Origin: a virus
Direction: 5' to 3' (one strand)
UHGV virus genome: UHGV-0137787
DNA length: 11,125 nt
Below are positions 1 through 5,045 of the stretch, one piece after another. The notes beneath the pieces are model-generated. The model saw nothing but the letters and a program-made list of their open reading frames with translations. It was not told the origin of the DNA and did no database searches. How positions within the stretch are numbered: position 1 is the stretch's first letter; each line of letters starts with the position of its first letter. The translations under genes and the position numbers were made by a program.

Positions 1-18
1 CGTGTGCTCTTCCGATCT
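1..18. other. Illumina adapter remnant (CGTGTGCTCTTCCGATCT) at the window start; technical artefact, not biology
   Basis: Exact match to the 3' end of the TruSeq adapter as I recall it; mirrored by the adapter start at 11112-11125. Confidence 0.8.
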
Positions 19-55
19 GCGATCGGGCTTTACTGTTACCACGGGTACAATGTTT

Positions 56-1030
56 TTATCCGTTACCGCACGACGGTTTCTGCGTGATAAACGTCCCAAG
101 CATCTTTTCCGCGATTGCCGACCAGGTGTGACACTGGACCTTTTCAGCATTTTTCACGCGATCAACGCGAGCAATAACCTCATCCCAATCAATCCGCGAC
201 TTGATAACCATATGGTTCACCAAAGCCAGGCGATCTGGCGGAAGGCAATCGGGCGGCGTTAATATCAACGCCCCACACATTGCCGCCTCAAGAACAGTTA
301 ATCCAAGGCTTTCGGGATGCGTAACGATAAAAACGTCACTCTTACGCAATTCAGCTGCAAATTCGGTTGCTGGTACCGGCGTCCGTCTGTATGGAGTTAC
401 CGAAATATTCCCCGGATCAATGGTAACCAATCCGTCATCGGTCAACGTTCTGGCCTCATACGGAACAGTCAGACGCTGAAGGTTCATAAGGATACTTAAG
501 GAGTGATCAAACCCACTAACATCAAATGCAGCGTGGTCTACAAAAATACGCAGAACATCGTCTGTTTTGGTTTCCAGATGGAACAGCTCCTGATTCGCTG
601 CCCATCCAACATGTTTGTTAAAGCGATTATGACGCTCTAACCTGCCGGGATTATCCAGGTACCGCCAGGTATCATCGCGGACAGTAAAAGTAATATCAAC
701 TGGTGCCGAATCCAGCATAGAACCGTCGTATACCTGAGCTACCCATCCAGTGAATCGACGACGCAGTTGCACACCTATTTCCCTGGGCACCGTAGTAAAA
801 TACCGCAATCCTGGCGCTAAAATGGCTTTCGCAGAACACGAGAGCGCAGCGGTCAACACAGCTTCAACATAATCCTCCGGGCTTTCGACGCCAGGGGAAT
901 ATGGACGATGGTATTGCAATGTTACCCCTGCCTCACTAAAGGCGCAGGCCAGGTTATAAGCCCACATTTCCGTATATGTTTTCACATCACTGATGGCTTC
1001 AAATTTTCGCCCAATGATCAGGATGTTCAT
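56..1030 (-). CDS. GT-B fold glycosyltransferase-like protein (GT1/GT4-like C-terminal motif), 324 aa from the preferred start
   Basis: C-terminal segment HPESLGLTVLEAAMCGALILTPP resembles the GT-B E-x7-E donor-binding motif (EGFGLxxLEAMAxGxPV). Preferred ATG at 1028-1030 is preceded by GAGGA with a 7-nt spacer and gives N-terminus MNILIIGRK. An alternative upstream ATG at 1052-1054 overlaps the ban stop (TAATG). Confidence 0.6.
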   Translation of the reverse strand: MNILIIGRKFEAISDVKTYTEMWAYNLACAFSEAGVTLQYHRPYSPGVESPEDYVEAVLTAALSCSAKAILAPGLRYFTTVPREIGVQLRRRFTGWVAQVYDGSMLDSAPVDITFTVRDDTWRYLDNPGRLERHNRFNKHVGWAANQELFHLETKTDDVLRIFVDHAAFDVSGFDHSLSILMNLQRLTVPYEARTLTDDGLVTIDPGNISVTPYRRTPVPATEFAAELRKSDVFIVTHPESLGLTVLEAAMCGALILTPPDCLPPDRLALVNHMVIKSRIDWDEVIARVDRVKNAEKVQCHTWSAIAEKMLGTFITQKPSCGNG

Positions 1031-1053
1031 CGGCTTTTCCTCGTTCCATTGCA

Positions 1054-2418
1054 TTAATAATCCTCTTGCCAGTCAGCACCAGCATAGTTATCAAATCGTG
1101 AATACTGGCCGTTAAAAGCCAATCTCACCGTGCCAATTGGGCCATTTCGTTGCTTACCAATAATCACCTCGGCAATGCCCTTCATTTCGCTATCCGGGTG
1201 ATAAACCTCGTCGCGATACAGAAACATGATCAGGTCTGCGTCCTGTTCAATTGCTCCTGATTCGCGCAAATCTGAATTTACCGGTCGTTTGTCCGCACGC
1301 TGTTCAAGCGATCGATTAAGTTGTGACAATGCCACCACCGGTACTTGTAATTCCTTCGCTAACGCCTTCAGTGAGCGAGAAATCTCGGCAATTTCCAGCG
1401 TTCGGTTATCTTGCAGCTCGGGGACACGCATAAGTTGCAGGTAGTCGATCATAATCATGCTCAATCCACCATTTTCTTTATAAACACGACGAGCGCGGGA
1501 ACGTAGCTCTGTAGGCGTCAGGGCGCTTGAGTCATCAATAAAAATATTCTGCTTGTCCAACAGAATCCCCATTGCGCCAGAAACACGCGCCCAATCCTCG
1601 TCGTTAAGTTGCCCCGTTCTAATACGAGTCTGATCAACGCGTGCAAGAGAGGCCAGTGAGCGCATCACCAGCTGGTGGCTCGGCATCTCAAGGCTAAAAA
1701 CCAATACGGGCTTATCGCTACGGACTGCGGCATTTTCGACAAGATTCATCGCAAATGTGGTCTTCCCCATAGACGGGCGGGCGGCGACAATAATGAGATC
1801 GGACGGCTGAAGCCCAGCCGTCTTCTTATTGAGATCGGTAAACCCGGTATCAATCCCCGTTACACCATCATGCGGTCGCTGAAACAACTCTTCGATGCGA
1901 GATACCGTCGCATCAAGAACGCTGGCGATGTCTTTTGGTCCACTCCCGCTCTTTTGTCGTTTTTCAGCTATTTCAAAAACGCGGCGCTCGGCCATATCCA
2001 GCAATTCATTGCTGCCCCGGCCATCCTGCGCATATCCAGCTTCGGCTATTTCATTTGCGACGGAAATCATTTCGCGAACAACCGCGCGTTCACGAACGAT
2101 ATCCGCATAAGCACAAATATTTGCCGCGCTGGGCGTGTTCTTTGACATCTCCGCAAGGTACGCAAAACCACCTGCACGTTCTAATTTACCGTTCTGTTCA
2201 AGTGCTTCAGCAAGCGTTATCAAATCAATCGGTTTGCCATGACTTAATAACCTCTCCATCTCACTGAAAATTTCACGATGAGCACTGGTATAAAAATCAT
2301 CAGCGACTACACGATCTGCAACTTCATCCCAGCGGTAGTTATCAAGCATTAAGCCACCAAGTACAGCTTGTTCTGCACTAAGTGAATTTGGCATGGATTC
2401 AAGAGGGGATGCAGACAT
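1054..2418 (-). CDS. ban: Replicative DNA helicase of the DnaB family, phage-borne analogue (P1 Ban-like), 454 aa
   Basis: Collinear with E. coli DnaB as I recall it across the whole length (Walker A PSMGKTTFAMN, plus IDYLQLM, RPVNSDLRESGAIEQDADLIMF, GKQRNGPIGTVRL) but with many substitutions. ATG at 2416-2418 is preceded by GGAGGA with a 6-nt spacer; the six-frame ORF starts two codons further up at a GTG. Symbol given from family plus P1-like context. Confidence 0.9.
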   Translation of the reverse strand: MSASPLESMPNSLSAEQAVLGGLMLDNYRWDEVADRVVADDFYTSAHREIFSEMERLLSHGKPIDLITLAEALEQNGKLERAGGFAYLAEMSKNTPSAANICAYADIVRERAVVREMISVANEIAEAGYAQDGRGSNELLDMAERRVFEIAEKRQKSGSGPKDIASVLDATVSRIEELFQRPHDGVTGIDTGFTDLNKKTAGLQPSDLIIVAARPSMGKTTFAMNLVENAAVRSDKPVLVFSLEMPSHQLVMRSLASLARVDQTRIRTGQLNDEDWARVSGAMGILLDKQNIFIDDSSALTPTELRSRARRVYKENGGLSMIMIDYLQLMRVPELQDNRTLEIAEISRSLKALAKELQVPVVALSQLNRSLEQRADKRPVNSDLRESGAIEQDADLIMFLYRDEVYHPDSEMKGIAEVIIGKQRNGPIGTVRLAFNGQYSRFDNYAGADWQEDY

Positions 2419-2698
2419 TAGCACTCCTCCAAGGCGTGCTGAATGTCAGATATAATCGGCATACTCAAATCACTCCTAACGATATGAGTCATCACCAGAA
2501 AATCAGGATTAATTCGCCGGACTCTTCCCGGCTGTCACACCGAATCGCCAGGATGGTGAATCCGCAGTCCGACGCTATGAACGGGGCTTGCACATTCCGG
2601 CTACCTGGTTCGTTGCCTGAGCTAGGGGCAAGGTTCCCCCTTTAACGTCACCAGACCGCTAACGACGCATGTGCCAGACGCCGTGTTACAACCAAATG

Positions 2699-2774
2699 TG
2701 GTGGCCCCTACCGGACTTGAACCGGTGACCGTGCGATTATGAGTCGCCAGCTCTAACCACTGAGCTAAAGGGCC
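2699..2774 (-). tRNA. tRNA with CAU anticodon, closest to tRNA-Ile2 (lysidine type, ileX-like); an elongator Met identity is not excluded
   Basis: Hand-folded cloverleaf: acceptor GGCCCTT/AGGGGCC, D-arm GCTC-AGTGGTTA-GAGC, anticodon loop CTCATAA, T-arm ACCGG-TTCAAGT-CCGGT, encoded CCA. Starts 3 nt after the upstream ORF stop. Confidence 0.85.
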
Positions 2775-2777
2775 GGA

Positions 2778-2885
2778 TTACTGTTTACTAAGTGCTTCAA
2801 TGGCGCTAACAATGCCGCCTACAACTATGGCAACAATGATAATGAGAACAATTGGATACTTGTCAGCAAAATCCCAGAAGCCCAT
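2778..2885 (-). CDS. Mini membrane protein, 35 aa (MGFWDFADKYPIVLIIIVAIVVGGIVSAIEALSKQ), TciC-like position
   Basis: Found by manual translation (below the six-frame cutoff). Its ATG overlaps the stop of the upstream ORF (TGATG); single predicted transmembrane helix. Confidence 0.4.
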   Translation of the reverse strand: MGFWDFADKYPIVLIIIVAIVVGGIVSAIEALSKQ

Positions 2886-3049
2886 CACTGATCCTTCGAA
2901 GCTGTTTTAAATATCGGCCATACCAATGTTACAGCTACTGCTACCAACGCACCGTCGGATAAAACCGACAGGACTGTGCTGGTGAAATCCACCAGCACAG
3001 ATAGCACGAGAAAAACCAAAGCCAGAATTAGACGTGCTTTTATAACCAT
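2885..3049 (-). CDS. Mini membrane protein, 54 aa (MVIKARLILALVFLVLSVLVDFTSTVLSVLSDGALVAVAVTLVWPIFKTASKDQ), TciB-like position
   Basis: Found by manual translation. Its ATG overlaps the TGA stop of the TerB-like gene (TGATG); strongly hydrophobic, probably two transmembrane segments. Confidence 0.45.
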   Translation of the reverse strand: MVIKARLILALVFLVLSVLVDFTSTVLSVLSDGALVAVAVTLVWPIFKTASKDQ

Positions 3050-3474
3050 CAGATATACTGTTCCAGTGGCAATTGAAGAGCCTGGGCAATTTTCTTCAAT
3101 TGCTCCTGCTCTTCTGCCCCAATGCCATCCTGGTCAGCAATATCAATGCATAGGCACAGAACATCTACCGCATCATTAGTCCCGGACACATCAGCCAGCT
3201 CACGTAAAGCCTGGGCATTAGCTCGGCGCGGCGAGGCTTCATATTGAGCGCGAATATTGGCGCTCATCTGGGCAATTTCACCGGAGAACGGCGCAAAGGC
3301 AGGAAGTGCTGCAATGGTTTTTTCCAATACTGCAATTTCTTTCGCATCGCAGGTGCCGTCAGAGTATGCAATGGAATATGCGCCCCAGACGGTCGCTTCC
3401 ACCGCATCACGGTTTTCCATCTTCTTGACTCCGCCAGCCGCTTTGCGGAATTTCTTTTTGAGAATGCCGAGCAT
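3049..3474 (-). CDS. tciA: TerB-like tellurite-resistance family protein (P1 TciA-like), 141 aa
   Basis: Size and composition consistent with the TerB family; RBS GAGG 7 nt before the ATG. Symbol is tentative and rests on context (adjacent to ban and the tRNAs, as recalled for P1). Confidence 0.7.
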   Translation of the reverse strand: MLGILKKKFRKAAGGVKKMENRDAVEATVWGAYSIAYSDGTCDAKEIAVLEKTIAALPAFAPFSGEIAQMSANIRAQYEASPRRANAQALRELADVSGTNDAVDVLCLCIDIADQDGIGAEEQEQLKKIAQALQLPLEQYI

Positions 3475-3616
3475 TTATTAACCTCATTACTGGTTGGGAA
3501 ATAAGGTTGCGGTGCCGGGTGCCTCCCGGTGTCCTTTGGCTGGTTATCTACCGTGGACGGGGAAACAAGGAGAAATGAATGGACTGATATAACCATTTCC
3601 CCGCGTGCGCTTAGCC

Positions 3617-3693
3617 GCATTCACCGCAACGGAAAGAGCATTCTTGGTGGACCTGTAGATTGGGATATGAACCCGTTACAGGAGAATGCTCTT
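3617..3693. repeat. Hairpin module A: GCATTCACC lead, 11-bp perfect inverted repeat (3634-3644 / 3683-3693) enclosing the conserved motif GTAGATTGGGATATGAACCCGTTAC (3655-3679)
   Basis: Direct inspection; paralogous to module B. Confidence 0.55.
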
Positions 3694-3877
3694 ACCTGTT
3701 GCGTACTCCGTTTCATGGAGCTAACGGCGGGGGATCAGACCGCACCAGACTGGACTTATTTCAGCGTTATGCTCATGCCAGAGAATCAAACTGTGATGGT
3801 CGGTGCTGAACTCCGACACAGGGTTGTAGCAAGCCCCGCAAAGCGCGCACTACTGTAGTTGCGGCACATCAGCCTGT

Positions 3878-3977
3878 GCATTCACCACAATGTTGAGAAC
3901 ACTGGTTGTCACGCTGCAACGCAACATTTATTCGTAGATTGGGATATGACCCCGTTACGCCAGTGTTCTCAACGTTG
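3878..3977. repeat. Hairpin module B: GCATTCACC lead, 18-bp inverted repeat (3888-3905 / 3960-3977, one G-U-compatible mismatch) enclosing GTAGATTGGGATATGACCCCGTTAC (3934-3958)
   Basis: Direct inspection. Loop motif is 24/25 identical to module A, while the stem arms have a different sequence but still pair. Confidence 0.55.
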
Positions 3978-4124
3978 TAGTGCCGGTTACGGTTCCGGCC
4001 AGGCCTCTTCCTCAACGGGGTGTTCTCCATACGGACTACCGTTTATTGGTCGTTCCTGCGGTTTATGTTGTGAAGCCAGATGCTTATCTTCTGGTTGCTT
4101 CTAAGAGCTGCACTTCATCACAAC

Positions 4125-4198
4125 GGTAAGGGTACTTCGTAGGGATTCGAACCCTCTGCCAAGCACAGCGATCTCCGACGTCGCAAAATACCCTTACC
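4125..4198 (-). pseudogene. tRNA-like remnant or non-canonical tRNA-like element bounded by a 10-bp terminal inverted repeat
   Basis: Contains a canonical T-arm (AGGG-TTCGAAT-CCCT) and a D-arm-like hairpin (GCGA-CGTCGGAGA-TCGC), but I could not fold a canonical cloverleaf; ends are GGTAAGGGTA / TACCCTTACC. Sits 8 nt downstream of tRNA-Thr. Confidence 0.3.
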
Positions 4199-4206
4199 TG
4201 TTGTGT

Positions 4207-4282
4207 TGGTGCCGGTTAACGGACTCGAACCGCTGACATCCTGCTTACAAGGCAGGCGTTCTACCAACTGAGCTAAACCGGC
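4207..4282 (-). tRNA. tRNA-Thr (anticodon UGU)
   Basis: Hand-folded: acceptor GCCGGTT/AACCGGC, anticodon stem CCTGC/GCAGG with loop CTTGTAA, T-loop TTCGAGT, encoded CCA; one C-A mismatch in the D-stem. Confidence 0.85.
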
Positions 4283-4284
4283 AT

Positions 4285-4360
4285 TGGCGATGGAGGATGG
4301 ATTTGAACCATCGACCCGTTGATTAACAGTCAACCGCTCTAACCGCTGAGCTACACCATC
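4285..4360 (-). tRNA. tRNA-Asn (anticodon GUU)
   Basis: Hand-folded: D-arm GCTC-AGCGGTTA-GAGC, anticodon stem GTTGA/TCAAC with loop CTGTTAA, T-arm GATGG-TTCAAAT-CCATC, encoded CCA; one mismatch in the acceptor stem. Only 2 nt separate it from tRNA-Thr. Confidence 0.85.
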
Positions 4361-4825
4361 ACTTGCCGGGTACGTCTCCGGCGAGGGCTTCCACCTCCGT
4401 ATGCTTTTCGGCGCCCGCGCCCTGGCTGAAATTCGGTAACAGGGGATGCATAACCCTGGCTTCCAGCGTGATTAGCGCCTTCAGCATGACGGGATATACC
4501 CGTTACAAGAAATTATCCCAGGATGCCATTAAGCAATGGCTGTTACGCTGAATGAAAAAGGACGTAACAGGTAAGGACGCTGACCAAAGAGATGGCCCCT
4601 TCTCGCTCATCTGGTTAATCGAACCAGCGCCCTTGCCTGTTATGCCTCCCCGTTCCCTAATACACAGACGGGGACACTCTGCGGTCGATTTTTTGACGGG
4701 GGACGACTCATACCCCGTGGCGTCAGGCTTCTTAGGCCGCTACCATCATCAGATCATCGTTTGCATTTACTTTAATGGTCAGTTTATAAACCGCCGCAAA
4801 GTCGCTAACCATGACGAAAACCCTG

Positions 4826-4850
4826 AAAAAACGCCCACCCGAAGATGGGC
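4826..4850 (-). terminator. Intrinsic (Rho-independent) terminator on the minus strand
   Basis: Minus strand reads GCCCAUC-UUCG-GGUGGGC followed by G and six U: a 7-bp GC-rich stem with a UUCG tetraloop. The plus strand has no T-run, so it is unidirectional. Confidence 0.65.
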
Positions 4851-5017
4851 AAACTGGATGAACAGATCGTTAGGCATTTCGGTGTCGCCACTTAGGTGCA
4901 TGGTCAACCTGGCAACTCGGTGGCCATGTGGGCGGAGTAACCCAGCCATGCTTACCGCCGCGCCTATCGCGGGTAATAACTCAATCCGCTTTATAAATCC
5001 CGTTTCATTGAAACAAT

Positions 5018-5045
5018 ATTACTCTAATAAATTTATTAGAGCAAT
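5018..5045. promoter_or_regulatory. Palindromic pair of overlapping P1 C1-repressor operator-like 17-mers
   Basis: Minus-strand site at 5029-5045 reads ATTGCTCTAATAAATTT, 17/17 against the C1 operator consensus as I recall it; plus-strand site at 5018-5034 reads ATTACTCTAATAAATTT (16/17). Together they form the perfect palindrome CTCTAATAAATTTATTAGAG, which overlaps the dmt stop codon. Confidence 0.6.

What the first reader, a model, noticed from the sequence alone, without database searches (positions are those of the whole stretch)
56..1054. Glycosyltransferase-like gene translationally coupled to the phage DnaB analogue
The product has a recognisable GT-B donor-binding motif (ESLGLTVLEAAMCGA) but is short for a GT-B enzyme and has no obvious partner genes for polysaccharide synthesis. 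Coupling to a replicative helicase raises the possibility of a DNA- or protein-directed sugar transferase (DNA modification or anti-defence), or of a helicase-associated factor that merely shares the fold.
Basis: partly seen in the sequence, partly recalled or inferred. Interest (0 to 1): 0.55.

Follow-up and report, generated by a model that had tools for sequence, protein, structure and literature searches.

The report
P1 dbn: glycosyltransferase of split cassette
This is the long-annotated phage P1 gene dbn, a genuine but uncharacterised sugar-transferase whose real partners are other sugar-transferase genes found beside it in many other phages, not the neighbouring DNA helicase gene.

The parts
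56..1054 (-). dbn CDS, long form (332 aa) from the ATG that overlaps the ban stop
   Evidence: ORF list. About 96% nt identity to P1, P7, SJ46 and RCS47, where it is annotated dbn / glt / 'putative glycosyltransferase, Dbn' / 'GT family 4'. PHROG 2518, unknown function. dN/dS 0.14 against P1.
56..1030 (-). dbn conserved core (324 aa) from Met9, the start used by all non-P1 homologues and by P1-like variants that carry an intervening ORF
   Evidence: Alignments; junction survey; residues 1-5 have pLDDT below 50.
1052..1056 (-). TAATG stop/start overlap between ban and the first dbn ATG
   Evidence: Read directly from the sequence. A TGATG variant occurs in 4 P1-like loci.
1061..1067 (-). SD-like AAGAGGA upstream of the first ATG, inside the ban 3' end
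   Evidence: Sequence coordinates.
1037..1042 (-). SD-like GAGGAA upstream of the Met9 ATG (1028..1030)
   Evidence: Sequence coordinates.
272..322 (-).
   Evidence: Conserved in 91-100% of 80 diverse family members. This is the only stretch that matches Pfam Glycos_transf_1.
533..538 (-). Invariant D173-H174 at the end of the first beta-strand of the C-terminal domain (family-specific)
   Evidence: 100% conserved in 80 sequences. Position taken from the model's secondary structure.
1054..2424 (-). ban, DnaB-type replicative helicase; upstream gene of the same operon but not a conserved partner
   Evidence: Pfam DnaB_C E=5e-108 and DnaB N-terminal domain E=2e-35; P1 annotation; no DnaB in 13 other Dbn contexts.
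5018..5045 (.). Bivalent C1 repressor operator Oban (Op72a/b) at the head of the ban-dbn operon
   Evidence: Matches to the C1 operator consensus with 0 and 1 mismatch; P1 annotation 'controls expression of ban'.
1..18 (.). Illumina adapter remnant (artefact); a second one lies at 11112..11125
   Evidence: Phage similarity starts at base 19 and ends at 11111. The end sequences read GTGTGCTCTTCCGATCT and AGATCGGAAGAGCG; identifying them as Illumina adapter is my own knowledge.

Best explanation
The ORF is P1 dbn. It encodes a compact but complete GT-B (GT4-like) glycosyltransferase of a distinct, mostly phage-borne family. It does not work with the Ban helicase.

It is one enzyme of a multi-transferase phage glycosylation cassette. 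The other members are PmgQ (a GT8-like GT-A enzyme with D-x-D), PmgO and PmgP (paralogous MptE-like, sialyl/Kdo-transferase-like proteins) and, in some phages, a roughly 190-aa GT-A-like protein. In many phages these genes are contiguous with overlapping stops and starts. In P1 the cassette has been split: dbn sits behind ban and the rest lies 6-8.5 kb away. Both pieces are in C1-repressed operons, so they should be switched on together in lytic growth.

Proposed mechanism. Dbn binds a host nucleotide-sugar through the conserved TH-x-E-x7-E site. It adds one sugar to an oligosaccharide that the cassette builds stepwise in the cytoplasm.

Acceptor (inferred, in order of preference): a phage or virion protein (about 0.35), an envelope glycolipid such as the LPS core (about 0.25), something else (about 0.3), DNA (0.05 or less).

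Shown here: gene identity, fold, family signature, partner genes and their distribution, shared C1 control, purifying selection. Inferred: catalytic activity, donor, stepwise order and acceptor.
For: Identity.

Family: 371 representatives at E<=1e-3, mostly 300-340 aa. Invariant D173, H174, H246, E256, G261; E248 is 99% conserved.

Partners, by family. PmgQ profile matches the GT8-type enzyme 6mw5 at E=1.1e-5 with the D-x-D and C-terminal motifs aligned. PmgO/P family: 11 of 12 members hit PF01973 MptE-like, best E=3e-12. PmgO and PmgP are paralogues (hhalign 97%).

Gene order: PmgP-Dbn-PmgQ-PmgO in L004. PmgO/P x2-(N190)-Dbn-PmgQ in lambdoid L162 and L164. PmgO-PmgP-Dbn-PmgQ in phage EP_H11. 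N190-Dbn-PmgQ in environmental phages L170 and L173, and Dbn-PmgQ in L171.

Phyletic pattern: all 22 phage records with Dbn are among the 26 with PmgP and the 30 with PmgQ, out of 50,697 records.

Bacterial relatives (39-52% identity) sit beside MptE-like/WaaZ_KDO_III genes in polysaccharide loci; the Colwellia locus (L006) also carries ABC-transporter and Poly_export capsule-export genes and KdsA.

Environmental phages add sugar-activation and decoration genes.

Regulation: C1 operators Oban in the window and Oppp / Op(hdm) before pmgN-pmgQ.

dN/dS is 0.14 and none of the 12 substitutions against P1 falls at a conserved position.

RefSeq independently labels PmgO 'alpha-2,3-sialyltransferase' and PmgQ 'glycosyltransferase'.

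Precedent for virion glycosylation by phage glycosyltransferases: PMC12363180, citing Freeman 2023.
Against: There is no biochemical evidence for any activity.

The Pfam Glycos_transf_1 hit is below the gathering threshold (23.8 against 26.4 bits) and covers only residues 229-315. A profile search of PDB sequences finds no significant glycosyltransferase.

The Arg/Lys pair that binds the donor diphosphate in canonical GT4 enzymes (my own knowledge) appears to be replaced by invariant D173-H174...D183, so donor chemistry may be atypical.

Deletions of dbn, pmgO, pmgP and pmgQ give no plaque defect. P1 virion LC-MS/MS reported no glycosylation, although it was not looked for.

The link between the phage PmgO/P proteins and the bacterial MptE-like partners is only at superfamily level (hhalign about 57-60%). 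MptE-like genes were not found in L170, L171 or L173. Some phages have PmgP and PmgQ without Dbn.

Only 13 non-P1 contexts were examined, chosen for long contigs. Several of them also trained the HMMs used.

In P1 the genes are physically separated, so joint function there is an inference.
Confidence: 0.55

Rival explanations
1. Envelope glycolipid remodelling. The cassette (Dbn, PmgQ, PmgO/P) extends or truncates the host LPS core at the cytoplasmic face of the inner membrane using CMP-Kdo and UDP-hexoses. This would change the P1 receptor (the terminal glucose of the outer core), limiting superinfection or loss of progeny on cell debris.
For: The three enzyme types match the types found in LPS/LOS core loci: WaaZ-type (precomputed PF27901 hits on the bacterial partners; WaaZ is a Kdo transferase, PMC8151780), GT8-like and GT4-like (which includes WaaG and WaaB among the hits). 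Bacterial relatives lie in polysaccharide loci, and L006 carries Kps-type export genes and KdsA. P1(S) recognises the terminal glucose of the LPS outer core (bioRxiv 10.1101/2022.07.24.501295).
Against: Both P1 operons are C1-repressed, so expression is expected in lytic growth and not in lysogens. The cassette also occurs in environmental phages carrying RecA/UvsX-like, PhoH and HSP20 genes, and next to terminase or head genes. Dbn is acidic (pI 5.6) with no membrane-binding feature detected. No LPS phenotype has been reported.
Confidence: 0.25
2. DNA-directed glycosyltransferase. Dbn glycosylates a base in replicating P1 DNA, as T4 alpha/beta-glucosyltransferases or the HY126 arabinosyltransferase do, to evade restriction or other defences. 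This would explain its place behind the replicative helicase and near dmt.
Against: The DNA glycosyltransferases are not the closest structures (ranks 19 and 27). The ban adjacency is specific to the P1 lineage. No base-hydroxylating or hydroxymethylating gene was labelled by Pfam in the loci examined, and the pathways described need one. All recognisable partners are glycan-type enzymes. The dbn deletion shows normal restriction on EcoA, EcoB and EcoK. The protein is acidic. P1 DNA has long been mapped and cloned with restriction enzymes without reported hypermodification (my own knowledge).
Confidence: 0.05
3. Helicase-associated, non-catalytic factor. Dbn merely keeps a GT-B fold and acts as a loader, regulator or partner of Ban.
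For: Stop/start overlap with ban in most P1-like loci and co-transcription from the C1-controlled ban promoter.
Against: 0 of 13 other contexts have a DnaB gene in the locus. A 101-aa ORF intervenes in about 21 P1-like loci. Residues at cleft-type positions of the model, including the nucleotide-sugar-binding E-x7-E, are invariant across the family, as expected for a working enzyme. The fusion partners found are a second GT1 domain and a methyltransferase, never a replication domain.
Confidence: 0.03
4. Dispensable relic. After being separated from its cassette, dbn in P1 is an expressed but functionally idle gene.
For: No phenotype on deletion or CRISPRi knock-down. It is physically separated from its partners in P1.
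Against: dN/dS is 0.14, with all family-invariant residues intact. The ORF is intact in more than 150 P1-like loci. Lack of a plaque phenotype under laboratory conditions is usual for accessory phage genes.
Confidence: 0.07

Closest known systems
GT4/GT5-type retaining GT-B glycosyltransferases (BshA 6n1x, sucrose-phosphate synthase 6kih, GlgM 6tvp, PimA 2gej, PimB' 3okc/3oka, WaaG 8b5s)
   Different: Only 7-15% sequence identity. Pfam Glycos_transf_1 is below threshold and restricted to the last third of the protein. Shorter (324-aa core). No Gly-rich loop after the first strand. Invariant D-H and His (TH-x-E) where canonical GT4 enzymes have Arg/Lys and Pro-Ser (motif comparison from my own knowledge; positions).
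Phage DNA glycosyltransferases: T4 alpha-glucosyltransferase (1y6f) and the phage HY126 glycosyltransferase of the 5-hydroxycytosine arabinosylation pathway (9iqz/9ir0)
   Different: Not the nearest structures. No partner genes for making a hydroxylated base. The partners are glycan-type transferases. The deletion does not change type I restriction.
Mycobacteriophage virion glycosylation (Che8 gp110, Corndog gp38, Myrna; Freeman et al. 2023 as cited in PMC12363180)
   Same: Phage-encoded cytoplasmic glycosyltransferases, non-essential for plaque formation, in temperate and lytic phages; in several Dbn contexts the genes sit close to structural or terminase genes.
   Different: No sequence relationship was tested. 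Different hosts (Gram-negative). This cassette combines GT-B, GT8-like and MptE-like enzymes. No glycosylated P1 protein is known.
LPS/LOS core assembly enzymes: WaaZ (KdoIII transferase), GT8 enzymes (LgtC, Waa outer-core transferases), GT4 enzymes (WaaG, WaaB)
   Same: The same three enzyme types occur together. Bacterial Dbn relatives lie beside WaaZ_KDO_III/MptE-like genes, with KdsA nearby in L006.
   Different: The phage proteins are only distant superfamily relatives. Expression is lytic-phase in P1. No membrane-association feature was detected.
Tupanvirus soda lake glycosyltransferase A0A6N1NPH0 (closest viral fold match)
   Same: Compact 315-aa GT-B; Foldseek E=1.2e-17, TM 0.76/0.79.
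   Different: 16% identity, uncharacterised, from a eukaryotic giant virus. It gives no functional information.

Membership tests
GT-B fold glycosyltransferase superfamily | Two Rossmann-like alpha/beta domains facing a cleft, with a C-terminal helix crossing back to the N-domain | tested here: met
CAZy GT4 / Pfam Glycos_transf_1 (PF00534) | Score at or above the Pfam gathering threshold | tested here: not met
   23.8 bits against a cut-off of 26.4, E=3.7e-5, residues 229-315 only. The 96%-identical cluster representative P0001 carries a precomputed PF00534 label and RefSeq calls it 'GT family 4', so this is borderline.
CAZy GT4 / Pfam Glycos_transf_1 (PF00534) | E-x7-E motif in the C-terminal domain | tested here: met
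   E248-SLGLTVL-E256. E248 is conserved in 79 of 80 and E256 in 80 of 80 diverse members.
CAZy GT4 / Pfam Glycos_transf_1 (PF00534) | Basic Arg/Lys pair after the first strand of the C-domain that binds the donor diphosphate (feature recalled from knowledge of PimA and WaaG) | tested here: inconclusive
   At the corresponding secondary-structure position the family has invariant D173-H174 and D183. R224 (86%) is the only well-conserved basic residue nearby. No residue-level structural superposition was available.
CAZy GT4 / Pfam Glycos_transf_1 (PF00534) | Retaining transfer from an NDP-sugar | not testable with these tools
   Needs enzymology.
Phage DNA glycosyltransferases (T4 AGT/BGT, HY126-type) | Accompanying genes that create the acceptor base (dCMP hydroxymethylase or flavin hydroxylase type) | tested here: not met
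   No such gene was labelled by Pfam in the window or in the 13 other loci. The requirement is described in PMC13326640. A whole-genome scan of P1 was not run.
Phage DNA glycosyltransferases (T4 AGT/BGT, HY126-type) | Specific structural or sequence similarity beyond the generic GT-B fold | tested here: not met
Phage DNA glycosyltransferases (T4 AGT/BGT, HY126-type) | Glycosylated bases in virion DNA, or protection from restriction | not testable with these tools
   Indirect evidence only: the dbn deletion shows 'normal restriction' on EcoA, EcoB and EcoK.
Helicase-associated factor | Conserved genomic association with a DnaB-type helicase | tested here: not met
   DnaB is in the locus only in P1 and in 0 of 13 other contexts. 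An intervening ORF is present in about 21 of 153 P1-like loci.
MptE-like / Dbn / PmgQ phage glycosylation cassette (defined here) | Dbn-family gene next to, or in the same element as, a PmgQ-family (GT8-like) gene and/or an MptE-like or N190 GT-A-like gene | tested here: met
   PmgQ in 9 of 10 non-P1 phage contexts, directly downstream of Dbn in 7. MptE-like in 10 of 13 contexts. At least one partner in 13 of 13. P1 has all of PmgO, PmgP and PmgQ 6-8.5 kb away. All 22 Dbn-containing phage records also have PmgP and PmgQ.
Known anti-phage defence systems (PADLOC) | Match to a defence-system protein model | tested here: not met
   No hit for Dbn, PmgO, PmgP or PmgQ at E<=0.01.

The most novel reading that the evidence does not exclude
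P1 and a wide range of other tailed phages (lambdoid, large E. coli phages, jumbo Stenotrophomonas phages, environmental phages) carry a previously unrecognised modular glycosylation cassette. It consists of a Dbn GT-B enzyme, a PmgQ GT8-like enzyme, and MptE-like or small GT-A-like transferases. In some phages it comes with its own nucleotide-sugar and nonulosonic-acid-type biosynthesis genes. The cassette would build an oligosaccharide, possibly containing a Kdo or nonulosonic acid-type sugar, on virion proteins during lytic growth. That would make the classic model phage P1 a glycosylated virus. The P1 genes long labelled 'putative morphogenetic' (pmgO, pmgP, pmgQ) and 'downstream of ban' (dbn) would be its four enzymes.
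Probability: 0.3. Interest if true: 0.65.

Novelty: new member of a known kind. Interest (0 to 1): 0.35.

Why it matters
The gene itself is not a discovery. dbn has been annotated as a possible glycosyltransferase since the curated P1 genome record, and the helicase-coupling idea that made it look unusual does not hold.

The useful result is the context. Four non-essential P1 genes of unknown function (dbn, pmgO, pmgP, pmgQ) appear to be one glycosylation cassette that P1 has split. The same cassette occurs as a single block in many unrelated phages.

In-frame deletions of all four genes already exist (Gonzales et al. 2022), so the question of what P1 glycosylates is directly testable by glycoproteomics of virions, LPS profiling and DNA nucleoside mass spectrometry.

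A positive answer would extend phage-encoded virion or host-surface glycosylation to the best-known Gram-negative transducing phage. It would matter for phage immunogenicity, host range and receptor biology, and it would correct the 'morphogenetic' labels on these genes.

Tried and rejected
1. A profile search of PDB sequences with the Dbn alignment gave only a spurious KtrA Rossmann match and sub-threshold PimA hits. Fold search was needed instead.

2. NCBIfam gave nothing useful. PHROGs gave only 'unknown function'.

3. The genome-contig scan returned just two P1-like loci.

4. Both metagenome-contig scans failed because no stretch of the alignment was conserved enough.

5. The viral-contig scans were saturated by near-identical P1-like prophages whichever query came first. 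They were useful only for the junction survey.

6. The afdb50 fold library was unavailable.

7. tRNA-directed glycosylation was considered, because P1 tRNA-Asn, tRNA-Thr and tRNA-Ile genes share the operon. It was rejected: no tRNA genes accompany the cassette in L162, L164 or L004.

8. Fusion partners of long family members were checked as a 'Rosetta stone'. Only a second GT1 domain, a SAM methyltransferase or unidentified domains appeared.

9. I first counted the small ORFs upstream of Dbn in L170 and L173 as MptE-like. They turned out to match the GT-A-like C-terminal half of the L172 fusion and not its MptE-like half. I corrected the count.

10. The promoter and terminator scan of 1..3000 found no more sites than shuffled sequence gives. 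It provides no independent support for the annotated internal dbn promoters.

11. A literature search for functional work on dbn, pmgO, pmgP or pmgQ found only essentiality and transcriptome listings. The Lobocka 2004 P1 genome paper could not be fetched under the id I tried.
Full report
WHAT THE WINDOW IS. Bases 19-11111 are 95-96% identical to phage P1 and its relatives P7, SJ46 and RCS47. Bases 1-18 and 11112-11125 are Illumina adapter remnants (my reading of the end sequences printed), so the window is a complete short contig from a P1-like phage-plasmid. The gene order matches P1: dbn, ban, trnI, tciC/B/A, upl/plp, tRNA-Thr, tRNA-Asn, dmt, hrdC, uhr, upfC/B, ppfA, mlp, upfA.

THE OBSERVATION. 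The ORF at 56..1054 (-) exists and encodes 332 aa. It is P1 dbn ('downstream of ban'). The curated P1 record calls it 'function unknown, possible glycosyltransferase', P7 calls it glt, RCS47 'putative glycosyltransferase, Dbn', and RefSeq 'glycosyltransferase family 4 protein'. The quoted motif is residues 248-262. The stop of ban (a DnaB-type helicase; Pfam DnaB_C E=5e-108) overlaps the first ATG as TAATG. The sequence facts are therefore correct, and the glycosyltransferase-like nature was already public knowledge.

IS IT A GLYCOSYLTRANSFERASE FOLD? By sequence the evidence is thin. Pfam Glycos_transf_1 scores 23.8 bits, below the 26.4 cut-off, and covers only residues 229-315. NCBIfam gives nothing, PHROG 2518 is 'unknown function', and a family profile finds no significant glycosyltransferase among PDB sequences.

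An exhaustive profile search finds 371 family representatives at E<=1e-3 and 124 at E<=1e-30, nearly all 300-340 aa. The 'short' length is therefore the family norm and not a truncation.

Across 80 diverse members the invariant residues are D173, H174, H246, E256 and G261. Conserved at 90% or more are D110, G150, W151, A153, D183, F242, T245, E248, S249, G251, A258, W290 and W311; R224 is 86% conserved. In the model these residues sit in loops just after beta-strands, which is where a GT-B cleft lies.

The E-x7-E pair typical of GT4 enzymes is kept. The D-H pair and the TH-x-E histidine are family-specific, and they occupy positions where, to my knowledge, canonical GT4 enzymes carry Arg/Lys and Pro-Ser. 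Donor handling may therefore differ; this is an inference. Against P1, dbn has dN/dS = 0.14, and none of the 12 substitutions touches a conserved position. The protein has no transmembrane segment and is acidic, pI 5.6.

THE HELICASE LINK. Among 153 fetched P1-like loci (some contigs were fetched twice), most have the TAATG or TGATG overlap. About 21 carry a 101-aa ORF between ban and dbn, and there dbn starts at the Met9 equivalent, with AAGGAG 6 nt upstream and an ATGA overlap onto that ORF. All non-P1 homologues also start at Met9. In the window Met9 has its own SD, and residues 1-5 are disordered in the model. So both start codons are plausible, and coupling to ban is not a conserved property of the gene. 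Outside the P1 group, none of 13 non-redundant contexts has a DnaB gene in the locus.

THE REAL PARTNERS. In every other context Dbn lies among glycosyltransferase-type genes.
- L004: PmgP-like, Dbn, PmgQ-like, PmgO-like, contiguous and overlapping.
- Lambdoid L162: two PmgO/P-like genes, a 189-aa GT-A-like ORF (here called 'N190'), Dbn, PmgQ-like, then the terminase genes. L164 is similar.
- E. coli phage EP_H11, and IME392: PmgO, PmgP, Dbn, PmgQ.
- Citrobacter-type phage-plasmids L003 and L163: PmgM, PmgO, PmgP and PmgQ homologues 5-7 kb upstream of Dbn on the same strand.
- Environmental phages whose Dbn is only 25-31% identical to the reference phage homologue P0019: N190, Dbn, PmgQ-like (L170, L173); Dbn, PmgQ-like (L171); or an MptE-like/N190 fusion, pyruvyl transferase, Dbn (L172).
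- Bacterial loci L005, L006 and L165 (39-52% identity): Dbn follows an MptE-like/WaaZ_KDO_III gene among other glycosyltransferases. L006 also has KpsMT/E/D-like export genes and KdsA. L165 has a hexapeptide acetyltransferase.

WHAT THE PARTNERS ARE. PmgQ has an invariant D-x-D and a C-terminal HGxPRP motif. Its profile matches the GT8-type Skp1 alpha-galactosyltransferase 6mw5 (E=1.1e-5) with those motifs aligned, followed weakly by glycogenin, LgtC and another GT8 enzyme. Of the PmgO/P-family proteins, 11 of 12 hit Pfam MptE-like, best E=3e-12. PmgO and PmgP are paralogues (hhalign 97%). Their relation to the bacterial partners is only at superfamily level (hhalign about 57-60%). RefSeq independently labels PmgO 'alpha-2,3-sialyltransferase' and PmgQ 'glycosyltransferase'.

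In the 50,697-record phage collection, all 22 records with Dbn are among the 26 with PmgP and the 30 with PmgQ. The 22 records represent only three independent lineages.

Summary table. PmgQ is present in 9 of 10 non-P1 phage contexts and is directly downstream of Dbn in 7. An MptE-like gene is present in 10 of 13 contexts. At least one partner is present in 13 of 13.

THE SITUATION IN P1. pmgO, pmgP and pmgQ lie 6-8.5 kb from dbn, across the tail genes 5, 6, 24, 7, 25 and 26 and beyond this contig's end. Both pieces are under the C1 repressor. The bivalent Oban operator is intact in the window at 5018-5045. Oppp in P1, called Op(hdm) in P7, precedes pmgN-pmgQ. The four genes should therefore be derepressed together on induction; this is an inference from the annotation.

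WHAT IS KNOWN EXPERIMENTALLY. CRISPRi scores dbn, pmgO, pmgP and pmgQ as non-essential. In-frame deletions of all four were made. None is among the knockouts that failed to give viable phage, and the non-lethal knockouts are described as having no plaquing defect and a restriction phenotype like the parent on EcoA, EcoB and EcoK hosts. The dbn and pmgQ rows read 'normal restriction'. A preprint notes altered dbn transcript levels in an hfq mutant. I found no functional study in this library.

WHAT IT PROBABLY DOES. I consider it well supported that Dbn is an active glycosyltransferase working in a multi-enzyme glycan-building cassette, and that its position behind ban is incidental. The acceptor is not determined.

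DNA is unlikely. The DNA glycosyltransferases (T4 AGT and the HY126 enzyme, which belongs to a 5-hydroxycytosine arabinosylation pathway that needs a hydroxylase and sugar-activation enzymes) are not the nearest structures. No base-modifying partner gene is present. All recognisable partners are glycan-type. The deletion leaves type I restriction unchanged.

Between the two main remaining options I slightly prefer a phage or virion protein acceptor:
- expression is lytic-phase;
- the cassette sits next to terminase or head genes in lambdoid and environmental phages;
- it occurs in phages that look lytic, together with their own sugar-activation genes;
- Dbn looks soluble and acidic;
- mycobacteriophage virion glycosylation provides a precedent;
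- MptE-like domains occur in flagellin glycosyltransferases (my own knowledge).

The envelope (LPS core) alternative is supported by the WaaZ/GT8/GT4 enzyme types, by the bacterial relatives in polysaccharide loci (one with capsule-export genes), and by P1's use of the LPS core as receptor. Neither option has been tested.

NOVELTY AND VERDICT. The finding as written describes a known, annotated gene, and its most eye-catching element, coupling to the helicase, is a lineage-specific accident. It is an uncharacterised member of a known kind (GT-B glycosyltransferases). Interest is moderate.

Noticed in passing
window 1-18 and 11112-11125: Illumina adapter remnants (…GTGTGCTCTTCCGATCT at the 5' end, AGATCGGAAGAGCG at the 3' end). 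The contig ends are library artefacts, and the first 18 bases also create a spurious terminator-like hairpin at 11-27.
   Followed up: yes
window 6143-6849 (inside dmt, 5036..7576 -): The central part of the bifunctional Dcm/Dam methyltransferase gene does not align with P1 in the blastn comparison: 707 bp here against 431 bp in P1. This gives an 846-aa Dmt against the 2265-bp (about 754-aa) P1 gene. The replaced segment lies between the C5-methylase and D12 Dam domains, so the cytosine-methylase target specificity may differ.
   Followed up: partly
L097 9693-9998 (also L092 and about 19 other P1-like loci): A 101-aa ORF of unknown function (MMQRKLTKRNKNWLSDMLKK…) is inserted between ban and dbn, overlapping the ban stop and the dbn Met9 start. 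In L097, ban itself appears split into two ORFs (8325-8777 and 8716-9696), either a frameshift or an assembly error.
   Followed up: partly
L001 (P1) 544-3102; outside the window: P1 PmgO and PmgP (MptE-like paralogues) and PmgQ (GT8-like, with D-x-D and HGxPRP) are annotated 'putative morphogenetic' in P1 and 'head morphogenesis' (hdmB/C/D) in P7. They look like glycosyltransferases and their deletions are viable, so these labels are probably wrong.
   Followed up: yes
L162 9435-10004, L170 7423-8004, L173 7429-8004, L172 5776-7224 (C-terminal half): A recurrent family of roughly 190-aa proteins ('N190') lies directly upstream of Dbn in lambdoid and environmental phages and is fused to an MptE-like domain in L172. 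Pfam gives only weak Nucleotid_trans (GT-A-like) hits (E about 0.003-0.02).
   Followed up: partly
L172 10040-12851: An environmental phage carries, next to its Dbn homologue, an acetyltransferase, a DegT-type aminotransferase, an epimerase/dehydratase and a CTP_transf_3 cytidylyltransferase. From my own knowledge this set resembles a CMP-nonulosonic-acid (pseudaminic/legionaminic-type) pathway. L170 and L171 carry a cytidylyltransferase/mannose-phosphate-isomerase fusion, and L170 and L172 carry a polysaccharide pyruvyl transferase.
   Followed up: no
window 2699-2774 (-): ARAGORN calls this tRNA-Met (CAT). The P1 record annotates the homologous gene as tRNA-Ile2 (CAT anticodon, ileX-like). 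The same call appears in the Citrobacter-type elements L003 and L163.
   Followed up: no
L002 (P7) 2537-3400: P7 annotates glt as only 864 nt, leaving a 134-nt gap after ban, although the full 999-nt ORF is conserved there. This is an annotation inconsistency between P1 and P7.
   Followed up: no
Phage records OR339795 (phi456), MZ188976 (Cronobacter JK004), OR565852 (Citrobacter phiNP), AP018399 (XacN1): These phages have PmgP and PmgQ homologues but no Dbn hit at E<=1e-8, so Dbn is an optional member of the cassette. Stenotrophomonas jumbo phages CM1 and RAS14 have adjacent PmgP and PmgQ, with a Dbn-like C-terminal domain about 13 kb away.
   Followed up: partly
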